Origin: the human T2T-CHM13v2.0 reference genome, Homo sapiens
Length of the DNA stretch: 64,000 nt
NCBI RefSeq assembly: GCF_009914755.1
Contig: NC_060945.1
Direction: 5' to 3' (one strand)
This document shows positions 45,762 through 64,000 of the stretch, in pieces (the stretch's first letter is position 1; every line of letters begins with the position of its first letter). A program made the translations under genes and the position numbers. The notes beneath the pieces are model-generated. The model was given only the letters and a program-made list of their open reading frames with translations. It did not search any database and was not told where the DNA came from.

Positions 45762-51824
<6,063 letters not shown>

Positions 51825-51959: not shown

Positions 51960-52484
51960 TGAATTTATTAGATCAACTATAAGAAAAAAAAACTAATGTA
52001 TTGATGTGTTGGGTTGAATGTGGAGAATAAAGGGAAGGGATAAGAGCTAACTCAAAAGTTTCAGGCTTTGGAACTAGATACAAGTTTGAAACACTGAAAA
52101 AGAACAAGATGTGTGATAGGAGGCCTTGGAGATTGTGATATTTTGGGGGACATGTTGAAAATGGGATGTTTCTGAGACATACAAGTGGAAGAATCAACCA
52201 GGCACCTAATTATTCATGTCTGGAGCTCAGTAGGAAAGCCAGCACTACAAAGACAAATTGTGAATTCTATGATGTCTTTGTATTAACTCAGGCTGTACAT
52301 GAAAGTGTAAAGAGATTTCCTAGCAGGGAGAGCATAGAGTGTGAAGAGGAGAGACAAAGATTGAGCTCGACCCAGGAAAGGACGGAATGTGCAAAGGAGT
52401 CAGAGACAGAGCATCTCAGGCAGTAAGAGCAAACCAAAAAACAATCATGATAAAAATTCATTATTTTAAAAAGGAGACTGTGGC
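51960..52484 (-). mobile_element. L2 continuation between the two L1s
   Basis: ttttgggggacatgttgaa...gagacatacaagtgga...gtctggagctcag...ggagtcagaga. Confidence 0.7.
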
Positions 52485-55400
52485 TACAACCACCACTAAC
52501 ATTTCTTCCTCTGCTGTCTCCACATTGTAAAAGGAACATAAACTCAGATTGCCCCAGAGCCGTGGTGGGCAGTTCAGGAGTGCCAAGCTGGGCTCTACAG
52601 CCAGCACTCAAGTGGGAGAGGAGCCTACACTCAGAGTATTGAGAGGGGCATGGCTGCAACTGTGAGAAAATATAAGGAAGCCACATGACTGAGCAAGAGC
52701 CCACCAACTGATCAATACACCTAAGTACCACCTACTCGATCACACCTCAAGGCTTCAACACCAAAAATACCTCATTAACAGACTCCTTTGAGAAACCAAA
52801 GACAAAAAGTCAGCTACAAATAAAGACCCTGCACAAAGGCTCAGCTCCATGAAAACACACAGAAAAGAAGTTTATTGACTGTATCAATCTACACTACAGT
52901 TAAAGGAACACCCACATGCAGAGATGAGAAAGAACCAATGCAAGAATACTGGTAACCGGTAACTCAAATGGTCAGAGTGTCATATGTCCTCCAGATGATT
53001 GCACCTGTTCTCCAGCAAGGGTTCTTAACCCTGTTGAGCTGGCTGGAATGACAGTATTCAGAACATAAATAGAAATGAAGATCATCGAGATTCAGGAGAG
53101 TGGCAAAGCCCAATCCAAGGAAACTAAAAACCACAATAAAATGATACAGAAGATGAAAGATGAAATAGCCAGTATATATAAGAACCTGAGAGAGCTGACA
53201 GAGCTGAGAAACACACTAAAAGAATTTCACAACACAATTACAAGTATTAATAGCAGAACAGACCAAGCTAAAGAAAGAAAATTAGAACTTGAAGCCTGGT
53301 TCTCTGAAATAAGACAGTCAGACAAAAATAAAGAAAAAACAATGAAAAGGAATGCACAAAACCTCCAAGAAATATGGAATCGTGTAAAGAGGCCAAATAT
53401 ATGAATCACTGGCATCCCTAAAAGGGACGAGGGGAAAGCAAACAACTTAAAAAACATATTTTAGGATATCGTCTATGCAAACTACCTCACCTTGCTAGAG
53501 AGGCCAAAAGTCAAACTCAGGAAATACAGAGAACCCCTGCAAGATTCTCCCCAACACACATAATCATCAGAATTTTCCAAGGTTGAAATGAAAGGCAGAA
53601 TGATAAAGACAGCTAGAGAGAAAGGGCAGGTCACCTGCAAAAAGAGAACACCATCAGGATAACAGCAAATCTCTCAGCTGTAACCCTACAAGCAAGAAGA
53701 GATTGGGAGCCTATATTCAACATTTTTAAGGAAGAAATCTTCAACCAAGAATTTCACATCAAGCCAAACTAAGCTCCCTAAGCAAAGGAGAAGTAAGATC
53801 CTTTTCAGATAAGCAAATGATAAGAGAGTTTATTACCACCAGACCTGCCTTACAAGAGATCTTGAAAGCACTAAATATAGAAAGAAAAGACCACTACCGG
53901 CCAATACAAAAACACTTAAATACACAGACCAGTAACACTATAAAGCACAATACAAACAAACCAGCATAGTAACCAGCTAACAACACAATGAAAAGATCAA
54001 AACCACACATGTCAATACTAACCCTGAATATAAACAGGCTAAATGGCTCCATTTAAACGGTACAGAATGGCAAGCTGGATAAAAAGGCAAAACTCAATGG
54101 TATGCTGCAAGAGACCAATCTCACACATAATGACACCCAAAGGCTCAAAATAAAAATAAAAAAATGGAGGCAAATCTACCAAGCAAGTGGAAATCAGAAA
54201 AAATCAGGGGTTGAAATCCTAATCTTAGACAAAACAGACTTTAAATCAATAAGGCTTTTAAAAAAAAGACAAAGAAGGGCATTACATAATGTAAAGAGTT
54301 CAATTCAACAAGAGTTCAATTCAACAATTTAACTATCCTAAATACATGTGCACCCAACATAGGGGCATCCAGATTAATAAAGCAAGTTCTTAGAGTCATA
54401 CAAAGAGACTTAGACTCCCACACAATAATAGAGACTTCAACATTCCACTGAAAGTATTAGACAAATCATTGAGGCAGAAAATTAACAAAGATATTCATGA
54501 CCTGAACTCAACATTGGACCAAATGGATCTGCTAGACCTGTACAGAACTTTCCACCCAAAAACAACAGAATATACATTCTTCTCATCGCCACATGGCACA
54601 CACGCTAAAATTGACCACATAATTGGACATAAAACAATCCTCAGCAAATGCAAAAAAAATTATACCAAACACACTCTTGGACCACAGTGCAATAAATATA
54701 GAAGTCAAGACTAAAAAAAAAATTGCCCCAAACCATGTAATTACATGGAAATTAAACAACATGTTCCTGAATGACTTTTGGGTACATAATGAAATTAAGT
54801 CAGATGTCAAGAAATTATTTGAAACTAATGAGAACAAAGCTACAACATACCGGAATATCTGGGATACAGCTAAGGCAGTGTAAAGAGGGAAGTTTATAGC
54901 ACTAAACACCCATGAAAAAAAGTTAGAAAGATTTCAAATTAACAAGCTAACATCACAGATGAAAGAATTAGAGAAGCAAGAGCAAATCAATCCCAAAGTT
55001 AGCAGAAGACAAGAAATAACAAAAATCAGACCTAAACTGAAGGAAATTGAAACCAAAAAACCCTTAAAAGATCAATGAATCCAGGAACTGGAATTTTGAA
55101 AAAATTACTAACATAGAGCACTAGCTAGACTAATAAAGAAAAAAAGAGAATAAATCCAAATAAACACAATTAGAAATGATGGAAAGGATACACCACTGGC
55201 CCCACAGAAATAAAGATAACCATCAGAAACTACTGCAAACACCTCTACACACACACACTAGAAAACCTAGAAGATATGGATAAATCCCTGGAAACATATG
55301 CTTTCCCAAGGCTGAGCCAGAAAGAAATCGATTCCCTGCACAAACCAATAATGAGCTCTGAAACTGAATGAATAATAAATAGCCTACCAAGAAAAATAAA

Positions 55401-58062
55401 AAGGACAAGATGGATTCACAGTAGAATTCTACCAGATGTACAGAGAGAGCTGGTACCATTCCTACTGAAACTATCACCAAAAATTGAGGAAAGGGGACTC
55501 CTCCCCAACTCATTCCATGAGGCTAGCATTATCCTGATACCAAAACCTGGCAGAGACACAACGAAAAAAGAAAACTTCAGGCCAATATCCTTGATGAACA
55601 TTGATGCAAAACCAACATCCTTGATGAACACTGATGCAAAAATCCTCAACAAAATACTTGTAAACAAAACGCAGCAGCACATCAAAAAGCTAGTCTACCA
55701 CAGTCAAGTAAACTTCATCCTTGGGATGCAAAGTTGGTTCAATGTACACAAACCAATAAATCTAATTCATCACATAAACAGAACTAAAGGAAACAAACAT
55801 GATTATCTCCATAGATGCAGTAAAAGTTTTTGATAAAATTCAACATCTCTTCGTGTTAAAAACTCTCAATTCACTAAATATTGAAGGAATATACCTCAAA
55901 ATAATAAGAGCCACCTACAACAAACCCACAAACGACAGCATACTGAACAGGGAAAAGCTGAAATCATTCCCCTGGAAAACTGGCACAACACAAGAACGCC
56001 CTCCCTCACCACTCCTGTTCAACATATTATTGGAAGGTCTGGCCAGAACAATCAGGCAAGAGAAAGAAATAAAGCATATTTAAATAGGAAGAGAAGAATT
56101 AAAAGTATCCGTTTTTGCAAATGACATGTTTTTATATCTAGAAAACCCCATAGTCTCAGCCTAAAATCTCCTTCAAATGATAAACAACTTCAGCAATGTT
56201 GCAGGATACAAAATCAATGTACAAAAATCACTAGCATTTCTATACACCAACAACAGCCTAGCTGAGAGCCAAATCAGGAATTGAATCCCATTCACAATTA
56301 CCACAAAAAGAATAAAATATCTAGGAATACAGCAAACCATGGAGGTGAAAGATCTCTACAATGGGAATTCCAAAGTGCTGCTCAAAGAAATCAGTGATGA
56401 CACACACAAAAAATATGAAAACATCCCATGGTCATGGACAGGAAGAATCAATATCATTAAAATGGCCATACTGCCCAAAGCAATTTACAGATTCAACGCC
56501 ATTCCTGTCAAACTACCAGTGACATTCTTCACAGAACTAAGAAAAAAAAACTATTTTAAAATTTATATGGAACCAAAAGAGGGCCCAAATGGCCAAGGCA
56601 ATCCTAAATGAAAAGAACAAAACTGGAGGCATCATGTTACCCAACTCCAAACTATACTATGTGGCTACAATAACCAAAACAGTATGGTACTGGTACAAAA
56701 ACAGACACATAGACCAATGGAACAGAATAGAGAGCCCAGAAACAAGCCCACACACCTATGACTGTCTTTGACAAAGCTGACAAAAACAAGCAATGGGGAA
56801 AGGACTCCCTATTAAATAAATGGTGCTGGGATAACAGGCTAGTCATAAGCAGAAGATTGAAACTGGACTCCTTTTTTACATCATATACAAAAATCAACTC
56901 AAGATAAATTAAAGATTTAAATGTAGAACCCAAAAACTATAAAAACCCTAGACAACTTAGGCAATACCATCCTGGACACAGGAATGGGCAAAGATTTTAT
57001 GACAAAGACAGTAAAAGCAATCATAACAAAAGCAAAAATTAACAAATGGGATCTAATTAAACTTAAGAGCTTCTGTACAGCAAAAGAAACTATCAACAGA
57101 GTAAACAGACAACCTACAGAATGGGAGAAAATATTTGCAAACTATGCATCTGGCAAAGGTCTAATATCCAACATCTGTAAGGAACTTAAACAAATTTACG
57201 GAAAAAAGCAAACAATCCCATTGAAAAGTGGACAAAAGACATAAACAGGTATTTTTCTAGAAAAGACATACATGCAGCCAAAAAGCATATTTTAAAAAGC
57301 TCAGTATTGCTGATCATTAGAGAAATGCAAATTAAAACCACAATGAGATATTGTCTCACACCAGTCAGAATGGTTATTATAAAAAAGTCGAAAACTTACA
57401 GATGCTGGCAAGGATGTGAAGAAAAAGGAACACTTATACACTATTGGTGGTAACGTAAATTAGCGCAACCATTGTGGAAAGCAATACGGTGGTTTCTCAA
57501 AGAGCTAAAAGCAGAACCACTGTTGGACACAGCAATTCCATTACTGGGTATATACCCAGAGGAATATAAATCATTCTACCATAAAGACACACGCATGTAA
57601 ATGTTCATTGCAGCACTATTCACAATAGCAAAGATATGGAATCAACCTAAATGCCCAACAATGACAGATTGGATCAAGAAGATGTAGTACACATACACCA
57701 TGGAATACTATGCAGCTATAAAAGAGAATGAGATAATGTCTCTTGCAGAACATAGATGGAGCTGGAGGATATTATCCTAGGCAAACTAATGCAGGAACAG
57801 AAAACCAAATACCACATGCTCTCACTTATAAGTGGGAGCTAAATGAGGAGAACTCATGAACATAAAGGGAACAACAGACATTAGGGCCTATTTCAGGGTA
57901 GAGGGTGGGAAGAAGGAGAGGAGGAGAAAAAAATAGCTATTGGGTACTAGGCCTAGCACCTAGGTGATAAAATTATCTGTACAACAAACCCCCATGACAC
58001 GAGAGCTTACCTATAAAACAAACCTGCACATGTACTCTCGAATCTAAATTAAAAGTTTAAAT
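52485..58062 (+). mobile_element. Near full-length L1PA15/16-like LINE-1, disrupted ORFs
   Basis: Partial 5' UTR, ORF1 peptide (NLQEIWNRVKRPN), ORF2 peptides, 3' UTR ctgtacaacaaacccccatgacac...cacatgtac. Confidence 0.93.
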
Positions 58063-58107
58063 AGTAGAAAATCACAAAATTTAAAAAAAGAAAATAGCCA
58101 TACTTAC

Positions 58108-58271
58108 CATGCTTATGGATTTGCTGGTGTTCATACTTCTTAAGGGTAGAATATTTTAAACAATTGGGAGAGGAATGGGACCAGGTAGGAGCTTCCCTTT
58201 GGCATAGCTTCCATTCCATAGAAAAAGAAGAATCAAACAAGAAGGACAAAACACCCAATGAAGCGATCCAT
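58108..58271 (-). pseudogene. Solo exon 1 of a cytochrome P450 CYP2C gene (4-nt frameshift deletion plus TAA stop)
   Basis: Translation MDRFI/VFCPSCLILLFLWNGSYAKGKLLPGPIPLPIV*NILPLRSMNTSKSISM gives a signal anchor plus the PPGP-type motif. 164 nt versus the 168 nt typical of CYP2C exon 1. Phase-0 donor GTAAGTATG at 58107-58099; stop at 58156-58158. Confidence 0.92.
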
Positions 58272-58380
58272 TGATGTGCTTTGTGTAAACGCAATTGAAA
58301 GCTTAGAATCCAAATATTTTATGAGCACAAAGTGTAAGATAATCACCAAACATGGACTAAGCCTTTGAACTTTGGATAAA
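58272..58380 (-). promoter_or_regulatory. CYP2C-type proximal promoter remnant: TATA-like CATAAAA and HNF4/DR1-like TCCAAAGTTCA
   Basis: CATAAAA at 58323-58317, ~50 nt upstream of the ATG as in CYP2C genes; TCCAAAGTTCA at 58376-58366. Confidence 0.6.
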
Positions 58381-58504
58381 TATTTTTTAATCTTTGATAG
58401 ACTTCCATCTACAGGCAGAAATAAAAACAAAAGTCAATTTGGTATTGATCAATTGCTAAGTTTTCACTGGAAATTTCAACTAAAGGTAACTCACTTTTAT
58501 AAAA

Positions 58505-58848
58505 ATATGAACAAATTAAAACCAAAATTAGTAGAAAGAGTGAAGTAATAAAGCTCAGAACAGAAATAAATGAAATAAAGATTTTTAAATAATTTATAAG
58601 ATCAACAAAATAGTTATTTTTTGAAAAGATGAACAAAATTGACTAACATTTATATAGAATAACTAAGATAAAATTGAAAAGACTCAAATAAATAAAATCA
58701 GAGGTGAAAAAGAAGACATTTTGACCAACACTAAAGAAATACAAACGATCATAAGAAGGTATCATGAGTGGCTATATGTAAACAAAACTGAAAACATAGA
58801 AGAAATGAATAAATTTTGTTACACATACAACCTACTAAGGTTAAATTA
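58505..58848 (+). mobile_element. Old L1M ORF2 fragment inside the transduced segment
   Basis: accaaaattagtagaaag...tttttgaaaagatgaacaaaattgac...acatacaacctac. Confidence 0.8.
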
Positions 58849-59701
58849 TCCTTTCTGATCCAAAAAAATAGAATATTAAGAGCAAAAATTATGTAGAATG
58901 TCTGGGACATTTTTCATTTGGATTAATTCACTTTGAATTAAAATAACAGCAACTAAAAGTCATCTGAGGATTCAGTGATAATTCAAATTGCATTTTAGTT
59001 CTAAAGCAATTAACTTTCAAAACTCTCAGTTTTAGAAGGAAACACTATCAAATGGACATGCTGCCTAGGATGGTGCCTTTAGACGAAGGGGCTGAGTAAA
59101 CATTCGATGAATTAATACATGCATTTTGAAATTGATAGTTGCACAGACTATGTTTTGTAAACTGGAGTGTTATAATATGGGAGCTCAATGTATTCAGTTG
59201 AAATTCCTGACTTAGCTACGTACTGTTTGTATAAACTTGAACATTTACTTAATTTTGTTAAGCTGCAGGTCCTACTGTAAAAATATGGGTAAACATTTAA
59301 GTACCTCTCAGGATTTTTTGAGAAGTAAGTAGGTGGCCCACAATAAATAATTTGCATTGTTTTTGGTCAGCAGTAGGCTTTAAAAATCAAATACTATTAT
59401 TAAATAGTAAAATTATGTAAATCTGTATGCTAAATATTAATTTCATGCTTCAGTTCATTTTATTTTGTAATATTTGGATTTTAATGTCTCAACTAGTCCC
59501 CAAAGGAGTGGAATGCAAAATTTGAAGTCTTCTTTGAGTAAATGAACTGTATAAATCTCAATGTCAAGTTTGTTTAAAAAATTGAATTGCTGTGTGACCG
59601 ACAAATGTCTTGCAAATATCTTTTAGTCTTTCATTTTCCCATTTTCAGTGTTTTCACTCCTTCCTCTCTCCTCTCTGGCTCCATTTACACACATTTTAAG
59701 A

Positions 59702-59724
59702 AATAAAAGCAATATATTAAAAAA
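59702..59724 (+). terminator. Polyadenylation signal and residual A-tail ending the L1 3' transduction
   Basis: AATAAA at 59702-59707, A-run 59719-59724 merging into the TSD. Confidence 0.6.
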
Positions 59725-59736
59725 TGAGGCTGTGTC

Positions 59737-59850
59737 CTGCAGGGATGGGTGCTGCTGAGATCAGGTAAAATGAGTAAAAGGGATGCCAAGCACTTTGCCA
59801 GACACATGTTGGTCATTCACCAACTGACGCAAAACTCAATGCCAAGTGGT
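59737..59850 (-). mobile_element. L2 host resumes after the transduction
   Basis: gtgctgctgagatcaggtaaaatgag matches the L2 segment expected right after ...aaggagactgtggc at 52470. Confidence 0.55.
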
Positions 59851-60035
59851 TGAACGCTTAGCCACAGAACATACTGAGACTCTACTGCTGATCTTCCTGT
59901 GGTAAGACAGAAAGGGAAGCCCAAAGAAGAGAGTTACATGTTCCCTCCCTGTGAAATTCATCCCTTTTCAATAATCCCTCGGGGAACTGCCCAGCCCCTC
60001 ATCTGTCCAGTTTTTGGTCAGGCATGACCTTCTTT

Positions 60036-60270
60036 AACATTTATAGAGATTTACTGTCTCAGATACTATTCTAAATGCTTAAGTGTATGAAATCATTTAA
60101 CCTTTACCACAATCCCATGCAGAAGATCTAATTACTACCCCATTTTACAGATGAAGAAAATGAGGCACAGAGAGGTTAAGTTTCTTGCCCTGCATCACAG
60201 TGAAGTGGCAGAGCAGAGATTCAAACCTAGGCATTCTGATGCAAGGATTTGTGCTTTCATCATCTTACCA
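60036..60270 (-). mobile_element. MIR
   Basis: ccccattttacagatgaagaaaatgaggcacagagaggttaag core. Confidence 0.9.
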
Positions 60271-60363
60271 TCTCTGCAAAGCCTTCACCAATTGCCTCAA
60301 GCATATTTTACTGTAATTCCTCCATACTCACTTGGAATACATTTGTTTTCATAAATGTCTAGA

Positions 60364-60500
60364 GCATCACTGTCCAATAGAAATAAAATGTGAGTGATGT
60401 GAGCCACATACATAATTTTGAATGTTCTAGTAGCCACATTTTAAAAAATTAAATGGAACAGGTGAAAATAATTTTAAAGCTATACTTTATTGAACCCAAT
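60364..60500 (+). mobile_element. MER33 5' half
   Basis: ctgtccaatagaaata...tctagtagccacatt...acaggtgaaa...aacccaat. Confidence 0.85.
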
Positions 60501-60698
60501 TGTGATGTTTAGTTTTATGTACCAACCTGGCTACCCTATTGTGTCCAGTTGCTTGGTTGAACAAAAGCCTAGATGGCACAATAAAATATTTTTCAGATGT
60601 GATTAACAATTAAATCTGTATAGTAGATTACACTCCATATTGTGCATGGGCCACATCCAATCAGTTGAAGGCCTTAAGAGCTAAGACTGTAACATAGA

Positions 60699-60998
60699 GG
60701 CTGGTGTGGTGGCTCATGCCTGTAATCCCAACACTTTGAGAGGATGAGGCAGGAGGATCACTTATGCCCAGAAGTTCAAGACCAGTCTGGGCAACACAGT
60801 GAGACCCTCCCATCTCTAAAAAAAAATGTTTTAAATTAGCCAGGCATGGTGTCATGTGCCAGTTGTCCCAGCTATTCAGGAGGCTGAGGTGGCAGGATCA
60901 CTTGAGCCTGGTAGGTTGAGGCTGTAGTGAGACATGATTGTGCCACTGCACTCAGCCTGGGCAAAAGAGTGAGATCCTATTTCAAAAAAAAAAAAAAA
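60699..60998 (+). mobile_element. AluJ
   Basis: gaggatcactt...cccagaagttc and ggatcacttgagcct diagnostics; TSD aagactgtaacata at 60683-60696 and 60999-61012. Confidence 0.92.
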
Positions 60999-61023
60999 AA
61001 GACTGTAACATAAAAAATTTACC

Positions 61024-63689
61024 TGTATTATCTTTGCTAGGACTTTGTATTAGTCCATTTTCACACTGCTATAAACAACTGCCTAAGACTGGGTTATTTA
61101 TAAAGGAAAGAAGTTTAATTGACTCACAGTTCCACCTCGCTGGGGAGGCCTCAGGAAACTTACAATCATAGCAGAAGGTGAAGGGGAAGCAAGCACCTTC
61201 TTCACAAGGTAGCAGGGAACAGGTGTAGGGGACTGCCAAACACTTTTAAACCATCAGATCTAGTGAGAATTCATTCACTATCATGAAAATAGCATGGGGA
61301 AACTGCTCTTTGATTCAATCACCTCCCTCAACACAGAGGAATTACAATTTAAGATGAGATTTGGGTGGGGACACAGAGGAAATCCATATTATTCCACCAC
61401 TGGCCCCTCCAAAATCTCATGTCCTTTTCAATTTCAAAACCAATCATGCCTTCCCAACAGTTTCCCAAAGTCTTAACTCATTCCAGCATTAACCCAAAAG
61501 TCCAAGTCCAAAGTCTCATCTGAGACAAGGCAAGTCCCTTCCACACAGGAGCCTGTAAAATCAAAAGCAAGTTAGTTACTTCCAAGATGCAATGGGGGTA
61601 CAGTCATTCCTGTTCCAAATGCCAAAACAAAGGAGCCATAGGCCCCATGCATGTCCAAAACTCAGCAGGGCATTCATTCAATCTTGAAGCTTCAAAATAA
61701 TTTCCTTTGACTCCACGTCTCACATCCAGGGCATGCTGATACAAGAAGTGGGCTCCCAGAACCTTGGGTAGCTCCACCCCTGTGGCTCTGCAGGATACAA
61801 CCCCCACAGCTGCTTTCACGGGCTGGTGTTGAGTGCCTGTGGCTTTTCCAGGAGCACGGAGCAAGCTGTCAGTGGATCTACCTTTCTGGGGTCTGGAGGA
61901 TGGTGGCCCTCTTGTTATAGCTCCACTAGGCAGTGCCCCAGTGAGAACTCTGTATGGGGGCTCCAACCCCACATTTCCCCTCTACATTGCCCTAGTATAA
62001 GTTCTCCATGAGGGCTCTGCCTCTGCAGCAAACTTCTATCTGGACATCCAGGTGTTTCCACACATCCTCTGAAATCTAGGCAGAGGTTCCCAAAGCTCAA
62101 CCCTTGTCTTCTGTGCACCTGCAGGCCCAACACCACACGGAAGCTGCCAAGGCTTGGGGCTTGCACTCTGAAGCCACAGCCTGAGCTGTACCTTGGCCCC
62201 TTTTAGGCATGGCTGGAGCTGGAGAAGCTGGAATGCCGGTCACCATGTCCCAAGACTACACAGAGCAGCAGGGCCCTGGGCCTGGCCCATGCAATCATTT
62301 TTCCCTCCTCTCCTCTGGGCCTGTAATGGGAGAAGCTGCTGTGAAGATCTCTGACTTGCCCTGGAGACATTTTCCCCATTGTCCTGGCTCTTAACACTCA
62401 CCCTCTTGCTACTTATGGAAAATCCTGCAGCTGGATTGAATTTCTCCCCAGAAAGTGGGTTTTTCTTTTCTACCACATGGATAGGCTGCAAATTTGCCAA
62501 GCTTTTATGATCTGCTTCCCTTTTAAGCATAAATTCTGATTTCAGATCATCTCTACATGAACACATATGACTGTACGCATTCAGAAAAAGCCAGAATAAG
62601 CATCTTCAATGCTTTGCTGCTTAGAAATTTCTTCTGCCAGACACCCTAAATTACCTCTCTCAAGTTCAAAGTCCTACAGAACTCTAGGGCAGGGAAAAAT
62701 GCTGCCAGTCTCTTTGCTAAAGCATAGCAAGAGTGACCTTTATTCCAGCTTCTAACAACTTCCTCATCTCCATCTGAGACCTCCTCAGCCTGAATTTTAT
62801 TGTCCATATCACTATAATTTTGGTTAAAATCATTCAACAAGTATCTAGGAAGTTTCAACCTTTCCCACATCTTCCTGTCTTCTTCTGAGCCTTCCAAACT
62901 CTTCCAACCTCTGCCCGTTACCCAATTCCAAAGTCTCTTCTACATTTTCAAGTATCTTTATAGCAGTGCCTCAACTCCCAGCACCAATTTCCTATATTAG
63001 TCCATTTTCACACTGCTATAAAGAACTACCTGAAACTGGGAAATTTATGAAGGAAAGAGGCTTAACTGACTCACAGTTCTGCATGGTTAGGGAGGTCTCA
63101 GGAAACTTACAATCATGGTGGAAGGCAAAAGGGAAGCAAGCACCTTCTTCACAAGGCAACAGGAGAGAGTGGTGGGGGGAGCTGCCAAACACTTTTAAAC
63201 CATCAGATCTAGTGAGGACTCACTCACTAACATGAGAATCGCATGGGGAAAACTGCCACCATGATCCAATCACCTCCCACCGGGTCCCTCCCTCAACATG
63301 TGGGGATTACAATTCAAGATGAGATTTGAATGAAGATACAGAGCCAAACCATGTCAGGCTCCCATAACAAAACAGCACAGACTGAGTGGTTTAAACAAGA
63401 GAAATGTATTTTCTCACAGTTTTGGAAACTGGAAGTTCAAGATCAAGGTATTGGCAGGTTTGGTTTCTCCTCTGGCTTTTTTTTTTTTTTTTTTTTTTTT
63501 TGGCTTGCGGACAAGGCCTTTTCTCTGTTCAAGAACATCCCTGGTGTCCTATCATATTAGCCCCCCACCCTTACAGTCCCATTTAATCTTAATTGCCTCT
63601 TTAAAGGCTCTGTCTCCAAATACAATTCCACTGGGGGTTAGAACTTCAACATATGAATGTGGGGAAGAGACACAATTCAGTTCATAACA
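61024..63689 (-). mobile_element. MLT1 (MLT1A/B-like) LTR split by a THE1D provirus (own sequence 61024-61045 and 63357-63689)
   Basis: tgtattatctttgctagg...ccataacaaaacagcacagactg...cacaattcagttcataaca; TSD TTACC/TTGCC. Confidence 0.8.
61046..63356 (-). mobile_element. Full-length THE1D-like MaLR provirus (LTRs 61046-61391 and 62993-63356)
   Basis: Two similar LTRs (tattagtccattttcacactgctataaa) flank a ~1.6 kb internal region with MEGSEEDRKMWE. Confidence 0.92.
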
Positions 63690-63877
63690 TTGCCTGAGTT
63701 ACCAGCCTGACTCGTCTGCCCTGTGGATTTCTGACTCAAAACTGCAACATCAACTCTTACCTTAATCTTTAGGCTGCTGACACAGTCTACAAATATCAGA
63801 GTTGGCAGCCTCCATAATTACATGAGCCAATTCCTTAAAATAAATTCCTTTCTCCTCTCTCTCTCTGTCTCTCATTC

Positions 63878-63879
<2 letters not shown>

Positions 63880-63914
<35 letters not shown>

Positions 63915-64000
63915 TATATATGTAACAGGATATTATGTATATACAGATGTATATACACCTACATATATACACACATATATTATGTGTATATACACATATG
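63880..64000. repeat. (GT)n followed by a (TA/CA)-rich microsatellite
   Basis: Read directly. Confidence 0.95.

What the first reader, a model, noticed from the sequence alone, without database searches (positions are those of the whole stretch)
58099..58271. Orphan P450 exon resembles CYP2C76/CYP2C58-type N-termini rather than the four functional human CYP2Cs
Seen: the frameshift-corrected peptide CLILLFLWNGSYAKGKLLPGPIPLPIV*NILPLRSMNTSKSISM, which the ORF track misses because of the 4-nt deletion and stop. From recall, functional human CYP2C8/9/18/19 read roughly WRQSSGRGKLPPGPTPLP…SKSLTN, whereas macaque CYP2C76 reads roughly LFLWNRSYAKGKLPPGP…ISKSISM, which is much closer. Inference: the exon may be a relic of a CYP2C lineage lost or pseudogenised in humans. 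It probably corresponds to one of the catalogued solo-exon pseudogenes (CYP2C63P or CYP2C64P); I cannot tell which.
Basis: partly seen in the sequence, partly recalled or inferred. Interest (0 to 1): 0.7.

Follow-up and report, generated by a model that had tools for sequence, protein, structure and literature searches.

The report
Jumping-gene fossil of lost drug enzyme
This broken gene piece on human chromosome 21 matches CYP2C76, a liver drug-clearing enzyme gene that monkeys have and of which we found no intact copy in the human genome, and it was likely carried here by a jumping gene (LINE-1) before apes and Old World monkeys split, so it is a likely fossil of an enzyme our ancestors lost.

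Summary
Confirmed: a dead CYP2C exon 1 on the minus strand (58271-58108; 4-nt deletion, TAA at 58158), the catalogued CYP2C63P. It belongs to the CYP2C76 lineage: 73-79% identical to most primate CYP2C76 N-termini versus 42-52% to human 2C8/9/18/19 and 36% to the 2C58P-like exon; 8 of 10 diagnostic sites are 76-type, none 2C8-type (the AU test does not reject the alternative, p 0.13). New: the exon sits in one 7,237-bp insertion, an L1 (52483-58061) plus 1,658 bp of read-through DNA (intron start, exon, promoter, antisense), between 15-bp target-site duplications at an endonuclease-type site. An unnamed ORF found with the left flank alone runs straight into the right flank, with the gap exact. 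So: most likely an L1 3' transduction from CYP2C76 intron 1. Gelada, colobus and siamang carry the copy. No CYP2C76 gene was found in human; a second relic (chr10:65.6 Mb) is a spliced retrocopy. An orangutan predicted protein is a full-length CYP2C76 orthologue, against a 'lacking in apes' claim. Known kinds of event; the parentage and mechanism were not found in print.

The parts
52148..52467 (-). Left half of the old target sequence (an L2 repeat by recall), split by the insertion
   Evidence: Unnamed ORF P0126 residues 94-198 align to 52457-52148, E 2e-9 and 7e-5
52468..52482 (+). Left target-site duplication, 15 bp, starting with A's right after a T run (L1 endonuclease-type site)
   Evidence: ends where L1 homology begins (52481-52483)
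52483..58061 (+). L1 element, 5,579 bp, truncated within its 5' UTR; about 9% from its family mean
   Evidence: Genome copies match from 52481 and end at 58061; colinear with the neighbouring L1 over 54046-58061; divergence
58062..58071 (+). Remnant of the L1's own A-rich tail (right edge approximate)
   Evidence: Relatives have an A tail at this point; the colobus model P0128 reads through to 58060, so the junction is shared with Old World monkeys
58072..58107 (-). Start of CYP2C76 intron 1 with intact GT donor at 58107-58106 (left edge approximate)
   Evidence: Same GTAAGT as CYP2C8/9/18/19 exon-1 donors
58108..58271 (-). CYP2C76-type coding exon 1 (CYP2C63P): 4-nt deletion after 58256, TAA at 58158-58156; cryptic acceptor AG at 58209-58208 defines a 100-nt internal exon 58207-58108
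   Evidence: cryptic exon used by siamang model P0006
58272..58323 (-). 5' UTR and decayed TATA box (58323-58317)
   Evidence: blastn homology to six human CYP2C exon-1 loci starts at 58322-58324; a galago CYP2C76-like model that reads through its UTR matches 58312-58256, 13/19, E 2e-10, and no human paralogue
58324..58497 (-). Likely proximal promoter; holds ATTAAA (58391-58386), 22 nt before the annotated 3' end of lncRNA LOC105372753 (58364)
   Evidence: Weak promoter similarity (a profile of the human promoters found nothing); poly(A) signal
58498..58845 (+). Older L1 fragment carried inside the transduced DNA
   Evidence: 63% to neighbouring L1; the gelada model P0001 has an exon matching 58639-58607
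58846..59719 (.). Rest of the transduced DNA, single-copy in the human genome; inferred CYP2C76 upstream region to about -1450; A-rich end 59697-59719 may be the decayed tail
   Evidence: Only a self-match; A-richness not exceptional
59720..59734 (+). Right target-site duplication (13/15 match)
   Evidence: Best match in 58050-64000; 3 other such matches in 657,576 positions
59735..59984 (-). Right half of the old target sequence
   Evidence: P0126 residues 3-89 align to 59984-59722, E 2e-11; 12 nt needed to reach the left half, 12 nt present once one duplication copy is dropped

Best explanation
The exon is a dead copy of exon 1 of the CYP2C76 lineage, lying inside one 7.2-kb insertion bounded by a target-site duplication, and it likely got there by L1 3' transduction: an L1 that likely sat antisense about 35-45 bp into CYP2C76 intron 1 would have read through its own end, across exon 1 and about 1.45 kb of promoter, and the joined RNA was likely reverse-transcribed into chromosome 21 before apes and Old World monkeys split. 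Shown: exon identity, intact donor, UTR/TATA remnant, L1 extent, the duplication at an endonuclease-type site, contiguity of the two flanks, the copy in gelada, colobus and siamang, and no CYP2C76 gene in the human stretches searched. Inferred: the source L1 in CYP2C76 intron 1, read-through, the upstream 1.2 kb being CYP2C76 promoter, an age near 40-60 million years (recalled calibration of 9% divergence), and later deletion of the parent gene in the human line. It makes no enzyme; at most it lends splice sites and a poly(A) signal to the overlapping lncRNA.
For: Identity 38/48 orangutan, 37/48 marmoset, 35-37/48 for 11 of 12 catarrhine rows versus 20-25/48 for human 2C8/9/18/19. 8 of 10 lineage-diagnostic sites 76-type, 0 2C8-type, 2 neither. 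Tree: human+gelada+siamang copies 100/97, sister to marmoset CYP2C76 91/87. Galago UTR match. Duplication 13/15 with left copy ending at the L1 truncation point and preceded by a T run; no comparable duplication directly after the L1 (best 9/15). P0126, found with the left flank only, spans both flanks with an exact 12-nt gap. Orthologous copies: P0001, P0006, P0128. No CYP2C76-level match among 95 listed human hits of the orangutan protein or in chr10:95.949-96.089 Mb.
Against: The AU test on 56 columns does not reject grouping with the 2C8/9/18/19 type (p 0.134) or with the 2C58P-like exon (p 0.102); support for the wider CYP2C76/21/3 clade was 78.5/93 and 84/61. No clean poly(A) tail: 19 A in 28 nt, matched by 2 of 808 windows nearby. 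The source locus could not be seen: no monkey DNA was available, only proteins. Homology beyond the TATA box is weak. One search scored 87 of 247 candidates, so absence of CYP2C76 from human is not exhaustive. nhmmer and Pfam did not recognise the flanks as a repeat.
Confidence: 0.86

Rival explanations
1. Template-switch chimera: reverse transcription began on an antisense CYP2C76 transcript and jumped to the 3' end of an unrelated L1 RNA, giving the same single insertion without any L1 in the source intron.
For: Explains the single duplication and empty site equally; the source L1 has not been seen; a gelada CYP2C76-like model that seems to read into intron 1 shows no L1 tail there (P0002).
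Against: The L1 ends exactly at its natural 3' end with an A-rich remnant, as read-through predicts and a switch does not require; it needs an otherwise unknown antisense transcript.
Confidence: 0.08
2. Two steps: a CYP2C76 DNA fragment was captured first (break repair or small duplication), and the L1 later landed at its edge.
For: No clean poly(A) tail; 15-bp match has a 2.7% chance anywhere in the 5.9 kb to the right if position is not fixed.
Against: The match falls at the junction fixed independently by P0126 (chance about 3e-5); no duplication around the L1 alone (9/15); colobus shares the L1-intron junction.
Confidence: 0.04
3. The exon comes from the CYP2C8/9/18/19/58P group, and its likeness to CYP2C76 is chance decay.
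For: AU tests not significant; 64-69% DNA identity to human paralogues.
Against: 0 of 10 diagnostic sites; 25-30 points lower protein identity; UTR matches galago CYP2C76-like gene and no human paralogue.
Confidence: 0.02

Closest known systems
CYP2C63P (NCBI RefSeq annotation given by the hub; solo-exon pseudogene naming of Nelson et al. 2004, recalled, not read)
   Same: Same locus and exon.
   Different: The annotation covers 58102-58248 only and gives no parent or mechanism; here the parent is CYP2C76 and the unit is 7.2 kb.
CYP2C76 of macaque and marmoset (PMC3035658; bioRxiv 10.1101/2024.04.07.588379; passages read)
   Same: Exon-1 sequence type, UTR, donor position.
   Different: [quoted passage not shown]
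L1 3' transduction of exons (criteria in PMC12533184 passages; CFTR exon 9 copies, Rozmahel 1997, and Ejima and Yang 2003 seen as titles in its reference list only)
   Same: L1 followed by non-L1 genomic DNA inside one target-site duplication.
   Different: Tens of millions of years old, exon antisense to the L1 with its promoter, and the source gene appears gone from the genome, so the copy outlived its donor.
chr10:65.62 Mb fragment (L002; CYP2C61P by recall)
   Same: Also CYP2C76-type (72-74% over residues 25-77 versus 54% for a lemur 2C19-like protein).
   Different: Spliced retrocopy: repeat-derived donor joined to the cryptic acceptor in exon 1, then exon 2.

Membership tests
CYP2C76 lineage exon 1 | Higher identity to CYP2C76 than to other CYP2C | tested here: met
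   33-38/48 for 13 anthropoid rows versus 17/47 to 25/48 for seven human 2C8-type exons
CYP2C76 lineage exon 1 | Lineage-diagnostic residues | tested here: met
   8 of 10 76-type, 0 2C8-type, 2 neither
CYP2C76 lineage exon 1 | Tree placement with the alternative rejected | tested here: inconclusive
   Sister to marmoset CYP2C76 (86/94; 91/87), but AU p 0.134 for the 2C8-type alternative on 56 columns
CYP2C76 lineage exon 1 | Matching 5' UTR | tested here: met
   Galago model P0056 read-through 13/19, E 2e-10
CYP2C76 lineage exon 1 | DNA identity to monkey CYP2C76 gene | not testable with these tools
   No monkey genomic DNA or cDNA held
CYP2C58P type | Closest to the 2C58P exon | tested here: not met
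   17/47 to the chr10:95.752 Mb exon (name by recalled position); marmoset CYP2C58 itself not obtained
L1 3' transduction | One target-site duplication around L1 plus extra DNA | tested here: met
   52468-52482 and 59720-59734, 13/15
L1 3' transduction | Endonuclease-type site (T run then A run) | tested here: met
   Left copy starts with five A after four T
L1 3' transduction | Contiguous empty site | tested here: met
   P0126 spans both flanks; 12 nt needed, 12 present
L1 3' transduction | Intact L1 3' end directly before the extra DNA | tested here: met
   Genome copies end at 58061
L1 3' transduction | Poly(A) tail before the right duplication | tested here: inconclusive
   19 A in 28 nt; 2 of 808 nearby windows equal it
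L1 3' transduction | Extra DNA traceable to the flank of a source L1 | not testable with these tools
   No second human copy found; monkey DNA not held
Processed (mRNA) pseudogene | Introns removed, no promoter, sense to the tail | tested here: not met
   Donor, intron start and TATA remnant kept; exon antisense to the insertion
Functional P450 gene | Open frame and downstream exons | tested here: not met
   Frameshift, stop, and no other P450 exon in the 64-kb window

The most novel reading that the evidence does not exclude
CYP2C76 is not a monkey invention but an old eutherian CYP2C line (with dog CYP2C21 and rabbit CYP2C3-like genes) that orangutans still carry and that was deleted only in the African-ape or human line. 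The chromosome 21 transduction preserves exon 1 and promoter of a second, marmoset-type CYP2C76 paralogue that catarrhines lost (Phe18, Ile34, Ser47 shared with marmoset), and its fossil splice sites and poly(A) signal have been reused by the ape lncRNA at this locus.
Probability: 0.3. Interest if true: 0.68.

Novelty: new member of a known kind. Interest (0 to 1): 0.5.

Why it matters
CYP2C76 is cited as partly responsible for monkey-human differences in drug metabolism and as having no human orthologue (PMC3035658 passages). Two human fossils turn 'monkey-specific gene' into 'gene lost on the human line', give its exon-1 and promoter sequence from our own ancestry, and make the timing testable (orangutan present or absent). 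It is also a clean, old example of an L1 transduction that outlived its donor gene, and it explains two catalogued but unexplained P450 pseudogenes. It has no known effect on human physiology.

Tried and rejected
CYP2C58-type and CYP2C64P identity: rejected. A duplication directly around the L1 alone: not found. DNA searches of the human genome with either flank found only the site itself; nhmmer of single flanks on 321 kb of held DNA found nothing significant; Pfam found no RT domain in the six flank translations, so the L2 label stays recalled. Two of the three proteins returned for the left flank (P0125, P0127) were chance repeat matches and were dropped; P0126 has no Pfam family. A profile of human CYP2C promoters did not detect the upstream DNA. 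PDB search gave only generic CYP2 hits. No CYP2C76 remnant in 140 kb beyond CYP2C8. The siamang model's last exon was not found in the window. blastn missed the repeat at the 5' end of L002; nhmmer and pairwise alignment found it. No duplication could be fixed around L002. PMC9252281 passages gave no usable age table, so the L1 age calibration is recalled. PMC1866355 and PMC4076266 passages added nothing. No structure or complex job was run: a 55-residue dead membrane anchor would not inform.

Full report
Observation. The minus strand holds a CYP2C exon 1 from ATG 58271 to 58108, followed by a GT donor. It is 164 nt against 168 nt for the human CYP2C exon-1 loci, with a 4-nt gap after 58256 and TAA at 58158-58156. 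No other P450 exon lies in the window. The hub's NCBI table names it CYP2C63P.

Parent. A protein search with the 50-residue frame returned 7 proteins among 9 candidates, all primate: marmoset CYP2C76, an orangutan 489-residue protein, colobine and gelada CYP2C76-like models, and two near-identical copies. A wider search from marmoset CYP2C76 listed 120 of 804 relatives; I aligned 30 of the proteins held, chosen to cover primates and main mammal orders, with 14 pseudo-exons and human exons (44 rows). The window is 38/48 identical to orangutan, 37/48 to marmoset, 33-37/48 to the other catarrhine rows, but 20-25/48 to human 2C8/9/18/19, 21/48 to the chrX solo exon and 17/47 to the chr10:95.752 Mb exon (gene names for human loci are by recalled position and by the PDB matches). 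At 10 sites where the two lineages share no majority residue, 8 are 76-type, 0 are 2C8-type, 2 neither. A galago model that reads through its 5' UTR matches 58312-58256 at 13/19 and no human paralogue. In trees the human, gelada and siamang copies form a clade (100/97) beside marmoset CYP2C76 (91/87). Against: with 56 columns the AU test rejects neither the 2C8-type grouping (p 0.134), the 2C58P-like grouping (p 0.102) nor grouping with catarrhine CYP2C76 (p 0.267).

The gene is missing from human. The orangutan protein searched against the human genome gave 95 listed matches (87 of 247 candidates scored); the highest identity, 73%, is this exon, and the cluster exons reach 72%. The 140 kb beyond CYP2C8, where macaques keep CYP2C76 (PMC3035658, passages), holds no P450 remnant. 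The only DNA paralogue of the exon is chr10:65.62 Mb.

How it arrived. Homology to human CYP2C genes extends upstream to the TATA box at 58322, and the donor is kept, so this is genomic DNA, not an mRNA copy. On the plus strand an L1 runs from about 52481, truncated in its 5' UTR, to its natural end at 58061, 46 bp from the exon. The 15 bases before the L1 (52468-52482) begin with A's after a T run and recur at 59720-59734 with 13/15 matches; only 3 other such matches occur in 657,576 positions, and the best match right after the L1 is 9/15. The independent test: a search of 1.84 billion proteins with a translation of the left flank alone returned 3 hits, one of which, the unnamed ORF P0126, aligns with residues 94-198 to the left flank and with residues 3-89 to the right flank (E 2e-11). 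The four residues between need 12 nt; the window offers exactly 12 once one duplication copy is dropped, 27 if both are kept. So 52483-59719, 5,579 bp of L1 plus 1,658 bp of other DNA, entered as one piece. That is the anatomy of an L1 3' transduction (established mechanism; criteria as in PMC12533184 passages). Inferred: the source L1 lay antisense near the start of CYP2C76 intron 1 and read through exon 1 and 1,448 bp upstream. The tail is only A-rich (19/28, not exceptional), and the source could not be inspected; the 58850-59725 part has no second human copy, as expected if the donor was deleted.

Age. Predicted proteins from gelada (P0001), red colobus (P0128) and siamang (P0006) carry the copy's private residues. 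P0001 also matches the older L1 fragment at 58639-58607, P0128 reads through to 58060 across the L1 tail junction, and P0006's upstream exons map to chr21:23.824 and 23.813 Mb. So the insertion predates the ape/Old World monkey split. All three have Glu where human has TAA, so the stop is recent; the indels near codons 5-8 differ between the models and cannot be resolved without DNA. The L1 is 15-17% different from its 14 best-matching copies, about 9% per lineage (biased low), which by recalled calibration means roughly 40-60 million years.

Marmoset affinity. Phe18, Ile34 and Ser47 are shared with marmoset and not with most catarrhine or lemur genes; Ile34 occurs in 6 of 112 proteins read, marmoset being the only primate. 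Four of marmoset's 7 changed positions fall among the copy's 11 (hypergeometric p 0.04; ancestral states set by eye). This hints at two CYP2C76 paralogues in early anthropoids, but convergence remains possible; about even odds.

Second relic and reuse. At chr10:65.62 Mb exon 1's last 100 nt are spliced to exon 2. The 66 bases before them match a repeat (MaLR LTR by recall) whose copies continue with GT exactly at the junction in 6 of 7 nhmmer hits (individually weak, E 0.04-4; pairwise scores above all 500 shuffles for two window copies). Its start corresponds to window 58207, just after an AG, the same acceptor that the siamang model uses. So an LTR-driven CYP2C76 transcript was likely retrocopied too. 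In human the annotated lncRNA LOC105372753 ends at 58364, 22 nt after an ATTAAA in the transduced DNA; human use of the cryptic exon was not testable.

Orangutan. P0004 (UniRef A0A8I5YN29, a prediction) is 489 residues, keeps the haem, ExxR and I-helix motifs, is 89% identical to the green-monkey protein and falls in the catarrhine CYP2C76 clade (97/88) within anthropoids (100/100). The bioRxiv preprint 10.1101/2024.04.07.588379 (passages read; supplement not viewable) calls CYP2C76 monkey-specific and lacking in apes. One of the two is wrong or the orangutan model hides defects. The nearest relatives in other mammals are dog CYP2C21 and rabbit CYP2C3/2C30-like genes.

In print. No held paper contains CYP2C63P; a search for CYP2C61P, CYP2C64P, CYP2C-se3, 2C63P or CYP2C58P gave 2 unrelated papers (listing only); searches pairing CYP2C76 with pseudogene, orangutan, CYP2C21 or gene loss, and one on P450 transduction, gave nothing on human relics (listings). 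Nelson 2004, the Uno 2006 and 2010 papers, the marmoset CYP2C papers and Nelson's web pages were not read, so the parentage may be noted there.

Verdict. Real, catalogued pseudogene; parent CYP2C76 (about 0.95); L1 3' transduction (about 0.86). Known kinds of event, new assignment. Interest 0.5.

Noticed in passing
L002:1603-1345 minus (chr10:65.62 Mb; CYP2C61P by recall): Spliced retrocopy of a CYP2C76 transcript: LTR-type donor joined to a cryptic acceptor inside exon 1, then exon 2; a second human relic of the lost gene.
   Followed up: yes
P0004 (orangutan, UniRef A0A8I5YN29): Full-length predicted CYP2C76 orthologue in an ape, against the published 'lacking in apes'.
   Followed up: partly
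window 58391-58364 minus: The lncRNA LOC105372753 ends 22 nt after an ATTAAA inside the transduced promoter DNA; its last exon spans the right junction of the insertion.
   Followed up: partly
window 58207-58108 minus: A siamang gene model (P0006) splices exons from chr21-orthologous upstream DNA into this 100-nt cryptic exon and uses the old CYP2C76 donor; both splice sites are intact in human.
   Followed up: partly
P0128 (red colobus): The orthologous copy is modelled as an open 70-residue frame from the original ATG, a P450 membrane anchor alone; may be a modelling artefact.
   Followed up: no
L013 (chrX:148.99 Mb) and L007 (chr10:95.785 Mb): Other solo exon-1 copies, of the CYP2C8/9/18/19 type; L007 is nearly identical to CYP2C18 exon 1 and flanks; how the chrX copy arrived was not examined.
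   Followed up: partly
window 47500-51490 plus, then 51495-51800: A separate, younger L1 followed directly by an Alu, 1 kb left of the insertion; the gelada model's last exon matches it at 50487-50446.
   Followed up: no
one search list: CYP2C76's closest non-primate relatives are labelled CYP2C21-, 2C3-, 2C30- and 2C31-like across carnivores, ungulates, bats, lagomorphs, squirrels and afrotherians: an old lineage, not monkey-specific.
   Followed up: partly
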